A program made the position numbers and the translations under genes. A stretch of 64,000 nucleotides of DNA, from positions 655,986 through 719,985 of the forward strand of contig MU058045.1 in NCBI GenBank assembly GCA_013265495.1, in the 5' to 3' direction. Shown one piece after another: positions 47,302 to 50,395 of the stretch. Under the pieces are notes generated by a model that saw nothing but the letters and a program-made list of their open reading frames with translations, did not search any database and had not been told where the DNA came from. Position 1 is the stretch's first letter, and each line of letters begins with the position of its first letter. This DNA is from Vicugna vicugna. Lineage: Eukaryota.

Positions 47302-47879
47302 GCCCCTTGCCTTCTCCTCTTCTTTGTTCTCTTCTTCTTTTTATTATTTTAATAAATGCTCAATAGTCTGTATGAGAGTCTCTGACTCATAGAAATCTGG
47401 AAAATGGAGGTTTTATAAGAAACCACTTTGTGAAGAAACTCATTCTATTCTATTTGGGTATGTTTTTATCTGTTTCTGTTTTATATTCTGTGGGAAAAGA
47501 CATGAATGCTTTGAAGGAAAACTGTCCGTGGCTGGGTTTGAGAAGTTTCAGTGAGCCTAGGCTCGGTGTTGAAGCGTGACTGGCTCTGGCTCGTAGTGGA
47601 ATTGTGGGTGATTCCTATTTCCTTCTTTATTCATTTCTGTATTTTCCAACTTTTCTAGAATAAGACTGTATGGCTTCATAACCAGAAAAATACTTTTAAT
47701 AAAAGAGTAAGTTATTGTATAAAGAATTTGAGTAAAAATTTGATTGTTGGGGAGACAGTTTTCTCTTTTTTAAGGAACAGGTAATTCTTCCAGATTGCAT
47801 TAGTAGGATTCTGATGGACAGATTCTGCCCCAGCCAGCCTGTATATTATGCTGTAATTGTCACTCTTTTTAAAATATTT

Positions 47880-48024
47880 CATTTATTTTTATTATTTAAC
47901 TGTTTTATTTTGGCATGGGGGAAGGTAATTAGGTTTATTTATTTTTAGAGGAGGTACTGGGAATTGAACCCAGGACCTTGTGCATGCTAAGCATGCACTC
48001 TACCACTGAGCTATACCCTCCCCC
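47880..48024 (-). mobile_element. tRNA-derived SINE (camelid-type)
   Basis: Minus strand GGGGAGGGTATAGCTCAGTGGTAGAGTGCATGCTTAGCATGCACAAGGTCCTGGGTTCAATTCCC plus tail AAACCTAATTACC. Confidence 0.85.
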
Positions 48025-48511
48025 TTGTAATCTATCTTGTGGTTTTAAAACGTGTAAAAGACTAGAGCTCTGGCAAGAAAAAAAGACATGATTGTGAAAA
48101 CTTCCATCCTAATACCAAAATGAACAAAGAGAAACAATATTAGAGAAGAAATGACATCAGTGTGAAACTATGAAAGGCCCCAGCTTCATAGCACCAACAC
48201 TGAAAAACCCATAGTATAATTTAGATTAAATTGAAGGGCGATACTGCGGGACCCACACACAGCTTTCCAGCTCTGGAGCACAGTGCGAGGCGGGGATGAT
48301 GGCAAATACGATTCTGAAGGGCCTGGTCCTGGCTGTTTGGTTGAGGGACAGTTTACTGGATTCTGTGAGGAGGATGAGGTTCTTCTTTTTGCTCCTGAAT
48401 TGTTTGGTTAGCTCCAGAATAGACTTGGTAAGTATTTCATAGTAACAAATGTTTAGATATTATAGTCAGCCCTCCATATCCGTGGGTTCTGCATCTGCGA
48501 TTTCAACCAAA

Positions 48512-48885
48512 AAAAAAAAAAAATAACCCCACACTCCAGGGCGCACTCACTTTCTGAGAGGGTCTGCATTCTCTCTGTGGACTGTGTATCTCTCTAAATA
48601 AACTCGCTGTCACTTTACTATGGCTCACTCTTTTTTTTTGTCCAGAAATGGGCAGAAGACCTAAACAAGCAATTCTCCAATGAAGACATATGAATAACCA
48701 ATAGGCACATGAAAAAATGCTCAATATCACTAATTATCAGAGAAATGCAGATCAAAACTACAATCAGGTACCGCCTCACACCAGTCAGAAGGACCATCAT
48801 TCAAAAGTCCACAGATGTTAAAACTGGGGAGGGTGTGGAGAAAAGGGACCCCTCCTACTATGGCTCATCTTGAATTCTTTCCTAC
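48512..48885 (+). mobile_element. ERV LTR fragment interrupted by an L1 ORF2 fragment
   Basis: LTR-like R/U5 text with AATAAA (48598-48603); L1 ORF2-like piece at about 48640-48855; direct repeats TACTATGGCTCA at 48616-48627 and 48856-48867. Confidence 0.65.
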
Positions 48886-49219
48886 TCCCTTGTTGCAGAG
48901 ACCTGCTGGAGGCCTGGCATGTGACGGTTCTCTCCTCCAGCTCCTGCAACGGTGTGCCAAGGGGCTCTGCCTGCCAGCTCTAGAGGCCGCAGGGTGGTGC
49001 TGAATTCTGGGACAGAGAGCTGTCCTCAGCAGTCCCTTTCTCCATAGGGCGAGGCAGGCCTTGGGATTCCCCATTTCTGGGAGCCTGAGAACCCTGCTCA
49101 AAGCACCAGGCAAAGGTGAGCGGTCTTACCGGACACCCGCTCGAATTACCCCATCTTCCAGAATGGATAAACAAATCGTGGTCTGGCCACACAATGGAAC
49201 ATTATTCAGCCTTTAAAAG

Positions 49220-49640
49220 TGTCACCTGCACAGCGAGGCCCAACAAACCGAAATGCTAGAGTTTGGAGCAGAGGAAGGTTTATTGCAGGGCCCAGTGGTC
49301 GGCTCATGCCCAAGTTTGGCCCCCCAACTCCCCAGAGGGTTTCAGCAAAGCAGTTTTAAAGGCCAGGTGAGGGAGGGGTGTCCCAGGATATGTGGTCAGC
49401 TGTGCACAATTCTCTGAATGGTTAATAGTGATCAATCCTTAGGCTCCAGAAGGTCTGGGAGCTCCGCTGATGATCACCACGTAGCTAATTTCTTCCCTCC
49501 CCTGGTGGTTTTAGCATCTGAAAAACTCAGGAAATACACATCAGATACCATTATCTAGGTATTTCAGAGAGGTGCTACAGCAGAGAATATGTGAGGGAGT
49601 CTGTGCCAGGAAGGCCCCTTAAGGGTCTTTCTCAGATACA
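49220..49640 (-). mobile_element. Solo ERV LTR (421 bp) inserted into an older L1 3' end
   Basis: TG...CA termini; 4-bp target-site duplication AAAG (49216-49219, 49641-49644); AATAAA on the minus strand near 49279; flanking L1 text is continuous once the LTR is removed. Confidence 0.8.
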
Positions 49641-49926
49641 AAAGCAAGGAGATTGTGACACCTGCTACAACACAATGAACCTTGAGAACATTAAGCTGCA
49701 TGAAATAAGGCGGTCACAAAAAGAGAAGTTCCACATATAGCTAGAGTGACCGAATCCCTAGAGAATATAAGGGGTCGGAGGAGCTTCCAGGGGCCGGGGG
49801 AGGAGGGTTGGGGAGTTCGTGTTTAGTGGGGATAGAGTTTCAGTTGCACAAGATGACAAAAGTTCTGGAGACTGGTTGCAGGACGTGAATGTACTTCACC
49901 GTGCACTTAAAAATGGTTAAGATGGA

Positions 49927-50073
49927 TGGGGGGAAGGTACAGCTCAGTAGAGAACAAGTGTAGCAGGCACGAGGTCCTGGGTTCAATTCCTAGTACATCC
50001 ATTAAATAAATAAGTAAACTTAATGACTTACCCCATCACCCCAAAAAACACAACAGAACAAAACAAAAACACA
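49927..50073 (+). mobile_element. tRNA-derived SINE inserted in L1
   Basis: Head GGGGGGAAGGTACAGCTCAGTAG...GGTTCAATTCC; flanking direct repeat GTTAAGATGG at 49916-49925 and 50074-50083. Confidence 0.8.
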
Positions 50074-50395
50074 GTTAAGATGGTCAATTCTATGTTATGT
50101 GTATTTCAGCACCATTTGAAAAGAACTAAAACAGAAAGCCACGCCCCGCAGCACTTCTGCATGGTGGGAAGGACCGAAGGGCCGGCGGTGTTGAAGGGGG
50201 TCCCAGCTCTGTGATTCCTCAGGGCACTGGCCTCACAGGGATGGCACTCGCTGGAGGGGGCCGGTTCCCCAGGGGGATGTGAGGGAAGATGTGAGGATGC
50301 CAGATGGCCGGGCTGAGGAGGGGCAGGTACCACGACGAGGCGGAGGAGGAGTGGCCTGGCTGCTCACCCTGACGCCGCACACCCCGCACTCGGCC

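What the first reader, a model, noticed from the sequence alone, without database searches (positions are those of the whole stretch)
47360..50395. Synteny break: CNTROB is followed by GSG1L2, not GUCY2D
Seen: the GSG1L2 ATG is about 3 kb after the CNTROB polyA signal, on the same strand. Established (from recall): in human CNTROB is followed by GUCY2D and the ALOX genes, while GSG1L2 lies roughly 2 Mb away on the opposite strand, head-to-head with GLP2R. A single inversion with breaks after CNTROB and between GSG1L2 and GLP2R would give exactly this order and orientation. There is no N gap in this interval, which argues against a scaffolding misjoin. It would separate GSG1L2 from the upstream region shared with GLP2R and predicts a reciprocal GUCY2D-GLP2R neighbourhood.
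Basis: partly seen in the sequence, partly recalled or inferred. Interest (0 to 1): 0.75.

Follow-up and report, generated by a model that had tools for sequence, protein, structure and literature searches.

The report
Alpaca centrobin duplication behind synteny break
In this alpaca-type genome the centriole gene CNTROB sits 3 kb in front of GSG1L2, which lies about 30 genes away in sheep; this CNTROB and its neighbour TRAPPC1 are damaged and public alpaca annotations list three different centrobins and two GSG1L2 proteins, so the break is likely the seam of a duplication specific to South American camelids rather than a clean inversion.

Summary
Observation confirmed: intact GSG1L2 (288 of 288 residues match an alpaca RefSeq protein) starts 3,040 bp after the CNTROB polyA signal, same strand, no gap between. 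Sheep and cattle lists keep CNTROB-GUCY2D; sheep and pig keep DHRS7C-GSG1L2-GLP2R. Dromedary accession order suggests camels do too, so the join is likely South American.

One clean inversion is incomplete. TRAPPC1 here has two nonsense codons and CNTROB exon 1 a +8-nt frameshift, while KCNAB3 and GSG1L2 are intact. Alpaca RefSeq lists three centrobins on one contig (10-18 residues apart; three camel species differ by 1-2), two GSG1L2 proteins and one RNF227. Both genes at the join are therefore likely duplicated.

Best reading (0.5): one seam of a paired duplication (DUP-NML-DUP type), later amplified and partly decayed. Whether the roughly 30 genes between are inverted is open. No reads were laid, so contiguity and breakpoint are untested, and this assembly may mix copies. 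Ten paper searches and seven look-ups in the scan's notes found no report; the scan noted other camelid duplication patchworks. Known mechanism, new instance; interest 0.38.

The parts
16252..16767 (-). RNF227 exon 1, intact; one alpaca protein listed, so it likely lies left of the duplicated block
   Evidence: 100% identical over 172 aa to XP_072796492.1; cluster of 4 members holds one alpaca accession
20934..26560 (-). KCNAB3, 14 exons read without a stop (outer coordinates approximate); marks the likely left limit of the damaged block
   Evidence: exon translations
27783..29002 (-). TRAPPC1, four exons with introns, two premature stops (codon 94, TGA at 28237-28235; codon 119, TAA at 27866-27864) and Q26E: likely a non-processed pseudogene copy
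   Evidence: aligned to PDB 2j3t_C (R94, Q119, Q26); Pfam Sybindin
30201..47356 (+). CNTROB, all 19 coding exons present, ATG to polyA signal; the only lesion found is the exon-1 frameshift
   Evidence: (902 of 905 residues of alpaca centrobin XP_072796727.1 placed in exact blocks)
30379..30406 (+). 8-nt tandem unit with one extra copy: +8-nt frameshift in CNTROB exon 1; it lies inside a possible in-exon GT-AG intron (30300-30409) whose removal would restore the frame
   Evidence: 871-aa RefSeq forms lack exactly these 34 residues
39895..40089 (.). 195-N assembly gap inside a CNTROB intron; the two halves of the gene are on different contigs
47357..50395 (.). CNTROB-GSG1L2 interval, which must hold the new join; a patchwork of insertions, four of them flanked by matching direct repeats and so unlikely to be the break
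   Evidence: matching flanks of 8 nt (47867/48043), 12 nt (48616/48856), 5 nt (49215/49640), 10 nt (49916/50074); repeat class names are recalled, not from a call
48466..48900 (.). Candidate breakpoint zone: a cut-off transposon-like end, a 15-A run (48509-48523) and an LTR-like piece cut at both ends; inferred, not located by alignment
   Evidence: element identities from recall
50396..61947 (+). GSG1L2, five coding exons, intact 288-aa frame

Best explanation
The CNTROB-GSG1L2 join is likely one seam of a paired segmental duplication in South American camelids, in which a TRAPPC1-CNTROB block and a GSG1L2 block were each likely copied and joined in flipped orientation, and the TRAPPC1 and CNTROB seen here carry two nonsense codons and a frameshift. 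Shown: adjacency, orientation, lesions, three distinct alpaca centrobin and two GSG1L2 proteins, old order in sheep and cattle. Inferred: replication template switching between two sites about 30 genes apart made two joins (end-to-end and start-to-start; DUP-NML-DUP class); unequal crossing-over between direct copies then added a third CNTROB and mixed the copies; spare copies decayed. In this model a CNTROB copy still precedes GUCY2D and a GSG1L2 copy still faces GLP2R. Several linear layouts fit the same joins, only one with the middle inverted; I lean (about 60:40) to a non-inverted middle, KCNAB3-[TRAPPC1-CNTROB-GSG1L2]n-TRAPPC1-CNTROB-GUCY2D, because direct copies explain a third centrobin. 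The window is likely a mixed or collapsed version of this region.
For: (1) TRAPPC1 stops at codons 94 and 119 plus Q26E against PDB 2j3t_C and a +8-nt frameshift in the adjacent CNTROB exon 1; KCNAB3, RNF227 exon 1 and GSG1L2 are clean. TRAPPC1 is a core TRAPP subunit (established knowledge), so a working copy elsewhere is expected. (2) Three alpaca centrobin sets on one 63,315,279-bp contig (XP_072796485-90, 727-29, 805-06) differ by 14, 18 and 10 residues, three camel species by 1-2; they form one clade, 96/90. (3) Two alpaca GSG1L2 proteins on that contig, one sequence per camel species (plus one longer dromedary model); one alpaca RNF227. (4) The 'centrobin-like' set has no 905-aa form among those listed and skips the 34 residues that hold the frameshift; its accessions lie 7-8 numbers from the second GSG1L2 (weak). 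(5) Dromedary GenBank RNF227 and GSG1L2 are 44 accessions apart; CNTROB-GSG1L2 spacing is 35 in fin whale and 30 in deer, and the cattle list has 30 named genes between CNTROB and GLP2R. (6) 14 of 24 listed runs, four organism labels, five studies, hold 0.81-0.87 of the interval's 328 sampled words. (7) Paired duplications with an inverted join are a described class with four predicted layouts (PMC9851044).
Against: No read, contig or second assembly was aligned across the join, so contiguity and breakpoint are untested; word sharing cannot show contiguity and the best holder may be the source sample. Copy numbers come from protein lists of one alpaca annotation, without coordinates. The window matches none of the three annotated centrobins: it has the camel residue at 20 of 21 copy-diagnostic sites and at 2 of 2 GSG1L2 sites, and shares only Q259 with the centrobin-like copy. 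The copy numbered next to RNF227 in RefSeq is full length, whereas here the RNF227-side copy is frameshifted, so the window may be chimeric. RefSeq numbers do not always follow gene order (hippo RNF227-CNTROB 827 apart). No second copy lies in the window. The second join was not seen. Duplications tied to Drosophila inversions are at most about 1.9 kb (PMC1885836), far smaller than the 20 kb and 12 kb needed here.
Confidence: 0.5

Rival explanations
1. A clean inversion of the GUCY2D-to-GSG1L2 segment came first, and the new junction region was later amplified in tandem as [TRAPPC1-CNTROB-GSG1L2]n; GUCY2D then lies directly next to GLP2R.
For: Fits adjacency, orientation, extra copies of both genes and single RNF227 equally well; the window reads straight from intact KCNAB3 into the join.
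Against: Needs two separate events whose edges happen to bracket the same join; no GUCY2D-GLP2R neighbourhood found in the papers or notes searched.
Confidence: 0.25
2. The join is an assembly error: collapsed duplicated sequence or shared repeats led the assembler from CNTROB into the GSG1L2 upstream region.
For: The CNTROB here looks like a mixture of copies, has a gap inside, the interval is mostly repeats, and alpaca chr16 was fragmented in an earlier reference (PMC6598621).
Against: No gap in the interval; four insertions keep their flanking repeats; the two genes that meet here are the two with extra alpaca proteins, which a random misjoin would not predict.
Confidence: 0.12
3. The order is older: shared by all camelids or ancestral in cetartiodactyls.
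For: Camel gene order was read only indirectly, from one assembly's accession numbers.
Against: Sheep, cattle and pig lists keep the other order; dromedary accessions are 44 apart; camels show one centrobin allele set.
Confidence: 0.08
4. The extra alpaca proteins are falsely duplicated haplotypes and the lesions are sequencing errors, leaving a simple inversion with single-copy genes.
For: No copy-number measurement was made; one annotation only.
Against: Copies differ by 10-18 residues against 1-2 between camel species; three sets exceed two haplotypes; three lesions cluster in two adjacent genes while the neighbours are clean.
Confidence: 0.05

Closest known systems
DUP-NML-DUP / DUP-NML-INV/DUP (dupINVdup) complex rearrangements of human genomes (PMC9851044, passages; PMC5338099, passages)
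   Same: Two duplicated blocks from distant sites joined in inverted orientation; an inversion of the middle may be hidden; several layouts fit the same joins.
   Different: Those are mostly rare patient alleles. Here the event would be old enough for copies to differ by 10-18 residues, with a third copy and decay; the second join and the middle were not seen.
Staggered-break inversions with inverted duplications at both ends, Drosophila (Ranz et al. 2007, PMC1885836, passages)
   Same: Genes from both breakpoints duplicated, many copies decayed, sometimes followed by tandem duplication.
   Different: Those duplications are at most about 1.9 kb; here whole intron-containing genes (about 20 kb and 12 kb). 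Inversion is proven there, open here.
Alpaca-specific duplicated gene blocks on chromosomes 11, 17 and 36 (NEK10-like, ATF5, FMN2-like, ABHD17A-like; PMC13751797, sections 11 and 14)
   Same: Gene-containing expansions present in alpaca and not in camel assemblies.
   Different: Those are many-copy fragment fields in repeat-rich domains; this involves few, near-complete copies, three annotated as coding. 'chr16' and 'chromosome 16' do not occur in that paper's main text.
Alpaca RefSeq centrobin, centrobin-like and second GSG1L2 models (XP_072796485-90, 727-29, 805-06, 813)
   Same: The extra copies already stand in public automatic annotation.
   Different: No paper found that describes them or links them to a synteny break.

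Membership tests
GSG1L2 orthologue | GSG-1 plus claudin-like domain and best match to named GSG1L2 proteins | tested here: met
DUP-NML-DUP / dupINVdup rearrangement | Both segments at the join are duplicated | tested here: met
   three centrobin sets, two GSG1L2, one RNF227 in alpaca RefSeq; protein level only
DUP-NML-DUP / dupINVdup rearrangement | The join links the two segments in inverted orientation | tested here: met
   same strand here; opposite strand in the old order, from the sheep order plus goat and bat fused models that put GSG1L2 N-terminal to DHRS7C
DUP-NML-DUP / dupINVdup rearrangement | A second, reciprocal join exists | not testable with these tools
   outside the window; no genome held
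DUP-NML-DUP / dupINVdup rearrangement | The middle segment is single-copy; its orientation | not testable with these tools
   no alpaca coordinates for GUCY2D to DHRS7C found
DUP-NML-DUP / dupINVdup rearrangement | Microhomology or templated insertion at the join | not testable with these tools
   no outgroup DNA obtained; breakpoint not located
Simple balanced inversion | No copy-number change at the ends | tested here: not met
Simple balanced inversion | Reciprocal GUCY2D-GLP2R neighbourhood | not testable with these tools
   searches found nothing either way
Repeat-mediated (NAHR) inversion | A repeat at the break that has lost its own matching flanks and has an inverted partner at the far end | tested here: inconclusive
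   four insertions keep matching flanks; only the 48466-48900 pieces do not; far end unseen
Non-processed pseudogene (TRAPPC1 copy) | Introns kept and coding lesions present | tested here: met
Non-processed pseudogene (TRAPPC1 copy) | An intact parent copy elsewhere in the genome | not tested

The most novel reading that the evidence does not exclude
South American camelids carry a lineage-wide rearrangement that flipped about 30 genes and left two or three working, diverging centrobin genes in a copy-number-variable array; the flanking copies could still flip or resize the region. Since centrobin builds centrioles, cilia and the sperm head-tail joint, this would be a rare mammalian centrobin gene family and a testable fertility locus.
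Probability: 0.18. Interest if true: 0.62.

Novelty: new member of a known kind. Interest (0 to 1): 0.38.

Why it matters
It turns a gene-order oddity into a candidate multi-copy locus. Centrobin is needed for centriole duplication and cilia; a truncating rat mutation causes skeletal defects and male infertility, and overexpression distorts the axoneme (PMC5881496, passages), so extra, diverging copies in alpaca are a testable dosage and fertility question. In practice it warns that older camelid assemblies show a false loss of TRAPPC1 and a broken CNTROB here, and that variants called in this region may be differences between copies. The mechanism class is known, and the extra proteins already stand, undiscussed as far as I found, in automatic annotation.

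Tried and rejected
No whole genome is held. No reads were laid on the join, so depth, loose ends, copy-specific variants and read-through stay open. RNA runs held only 0.05-0.08 of the interval's words (6 of 24 rows): no evidence for or against read-through. Two metagenome scans for mammalian host contigs around GSG1L2 exon 1 and a CNTROB exon found 0 confirmed loci among 173 and 594 pattern matches. RefSeq numbers as a gene-order proxy are unreliable in general (hippo control); only GenBank numbers with two controls were given weight. The dromedary GenBank centrobin accession was not seen (15 of 16 cluster members listed), so RNF227 stood in. Farre 2019 (PMC6442394; passages, one supplement part and a supplement search, one file unreadable) gave no camelid breakpoint list. 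The VicPac3.1 orthologue table (PMC6598621 Table 6) gave no row for the region's genes under the names searched. Supplement searches of PMC7468183 (only 4,623 characters held), PMC7331169 and PMC13663546 gave no hits. The camelid CNV preprint 10.1101/2025.08.28.672513 (part 1 of 2 read) names no locus gene there; its supplements could not be seen and may bear on copy number. The VicPac4 paper is not held and may describe this region. The horse list (PMC8532986) is unordered and was not used. The two opposite-facing SINE-like copies in the interval were rejected as the break because each keeps its flanking repeat. CHD3 was not screened for lesions.

Full report
1. Observation. The window holds CHD3, RNF227, KCNAB3, TRAPPC1, CNTROB and GSG1L2. 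CNTROB ends with a stop at 47299-47301 and AATAAA at 47351; the GSG1L2 ATG is at 50396, 3,040 bp further on the same strand. GSG1L2 is complete: five GT-AG exons, 288 codons, 288/288 identical to alpaca XP_015106297.1 and 279-281/288 to camels, with Pfam GSG-1 and PMP22_Claudin. The animal is thus a South American camelid. There is no N between the genes, but the window's only gap (39895-40089) lies inside CNTROB.

2. The order is derived. A sheep table lists CNTROB, GUCY2D, ALOX15B and, further on, USP43, DHRS7C, GSG1L2, GLP2R (PMC11836209, passage). A cattle table gives the same run with 30 named genes between CNTROB and GLP2R but does not name GSG1L2 (PMC13542453, passage). A pig table covers the right end only (PMC6487013, passage). 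Goat and bat gene models that fuse GSG1L2 in front of DHRS7C put GSG1L2 on the strand opposite to CNTROB in that order, so the copy here is flipped. The human order is recalled, not checked. For camels the evidence is indirect: dromedary GenBank RNF227 (KAB1265168.1) and GSG1L2 (KAB1265124.1) are 44 numbers apart, where about 4 would be expected with this join; CNTROB and GSG1L2 are 35 apart in fin whale and 30 in deer. The join is therefore likely South American.

3. TRAPPC1 has TGA at codon 94 and TAA at codon 119, where PDB 2j3t_C has R and Q, plus Q26E. CNTROB has all 19 coding exons, but one extra 8-nt unit in exon 1 shifts the frame. An in-exon GT-AG stretch (30300-30409, 110 nt; 102 nt without the insert) would skip the lesion and matches the 871-aa RefSeq forms, so this copy may still make a shorter centrobin. 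KCNAB3 (14 exons), RNF227 exon 1 and GSG1L2 show no lesion; CHD3 was not screened.

4. Both genes at the join have extra alpaca proteins. On one 63,315,279-bp alpaca contig RefSeq lists three centrobin sets (XP_072796485-90, XP_072796727-29, 'centrobin-like' XP_072796805-06) and two GSG1L2 proteins, but one RNF227. That this contig is chromosome 16 of the newest alpaca assembly is my inference. The centrobins differ by 14, 18 and 10 residues, the three camel species by 1-2, alpaca from camel by 18-24; a 12-row tree groups the three alpaca proteins at 96/90. They behave as paralogues that arose after the split from camels. The window follows none of them: it has the camel residue at 19 of 20 diagnostic sites covered (20 of 21), sharing only Q259 with the centrobin-like copy, and at 2 of 2 GSG1L2 sites. 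It is a fourth copy, a different haplotype, or a mixture made by collapse. Older alpaca centrobin models start only at the exon after the gap, in line with a troubled assembly here.

5. The interval. It is a patchwork. Four insertions keep matching flanks of 8, 12, 5 and 10 nt and are unlikely to be the break; by recall they are two camelid SINEs, an L1 piece and an LTR. Only the cut-off pieces at 48466-48900 lack such flanks, so the break likely lies there; this was not confirmed by any alignment. 14 of 24 listed runs (10 guessed DNA, 4 of unstated kind; four organism labels, five studies) hold 0.81-0.87 of 328 sampled words. This shows the sequence is common, not that it is contiguous: a misjoin would remove about 1% of the words. 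No reads were laid.

6. Mechanism. Call the TRAPPC1-CNTROB block a, the GSG1L2 block b and the genes between M; the old order is L-a-M-b-R. The window shows L-a-b(flipped). One replication event with two template switches that copies a and b gives this join plus a second one, and several layouts: L-a-b'-M'-a'-b-R (middle inverted), L-a-b'-a-M-b-R or L-a-M-b-a'-b-R (middle unchanged). Human genetics calls this DUP-NML-DUP, can hide an inversion, and has four predicted structures (PMC9851044, passages); Drosophila inversions show the same signature on a far smaller scale (PMC1885836, passages). The layouts with direct copies can expand by unequal crossing-over, which would give a third centrobin and mixed copies, so I lean to them (about 60:40 within this model). 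Shown: join, orientation, lesions, paralogous proteins. Inferred: template switching, second join, amplification, layout. The main rival is a clean inversion followed by tandem amplification of the junction (0.25); over all models the middle is inverted with a probability of about one half. Misjoin 0.12, older order 0.08, false duplicates 0.05.

7. Against my reading. Nothing spans the join independently. Copy counts rest on one annotation's protein lists without coordinates. The RefSeq copy numbered beside RNF227 is full length while the window's is frameshifted. RefSeq numbers are not always in gene order (hippo). An intact TRAPPC1 elsewhere was not looked up.

8. Novelty. Ten paper searches found no paper on this join or on camelid centrobin copies: 0 hits for alpaca+CNTROB and for centrobin+duplication+camelid; the 2 papers with both CNTROB and GSG1L2 are sheep and horse gene lists. 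The VicPac4 paper is not held and may cover it. Alpaca-specific duplicated gene blocks are described for chromosomes 11, 17 and 36 (PMC13751797, sections 11 and 14). The scan's notes hold nothing on this locus but several other camelid duplication patchworks (unchecked AI notes).

9. Verdict. Observation confirmed; interpretation partly supported. Most likely the seam of a South American camelid segmental duplication that left several centrobin copies, with the inversion unresolved. New member of a known kind; interest 0.38.

Noticed in passing
window 27783-29002 (-): TRAPPC1 carries two nonsense codons (94, 119) and Q26E; in this assembly the gene would look lost.
   Followed up: yes
window 30300-30409 (+): +8-nt frameshift in CNTROB exon 1 lies inside a possible in-exon intron; splicing it out would give the 871-aa form seen in RefSeq.
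   Followed up: partly
proteins P0170, P0050, P0186: Three alpaca centrobin paralogues with 10-18 differences, many of the R>C, R>Q, P>L, A>T type; branches look somewhat longer than in camels, not tested for selection.
   Followed up: partly
window 43258-43545: 143-bp tandem duplication, 97% identical, in a CNTROB intron; real or a trace of two copies assembled side by side.
   Followed up: no
window 48616-48867: A 3' L1-like piece with a 12-nt target-site repeat sits inside an LTR-like fragment; a possible marker of the junction allele.
   Followed up: partly
proteins P0005 (goat), P0035 (Pteropus alecto): Gene models that fuse GSG1L2 to DHRS7C in two species; probably prediction errors, but GSG1L2-DHRS7C read-through was not tested.
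   Followed up: no
proteins P0171-P0174: Older alpaca centrobin models are 458-489 aa (the two inspected start after the gap); the one aligned mixes residues of two of the newer copies.
   Followed up: partly
   Followed up: no
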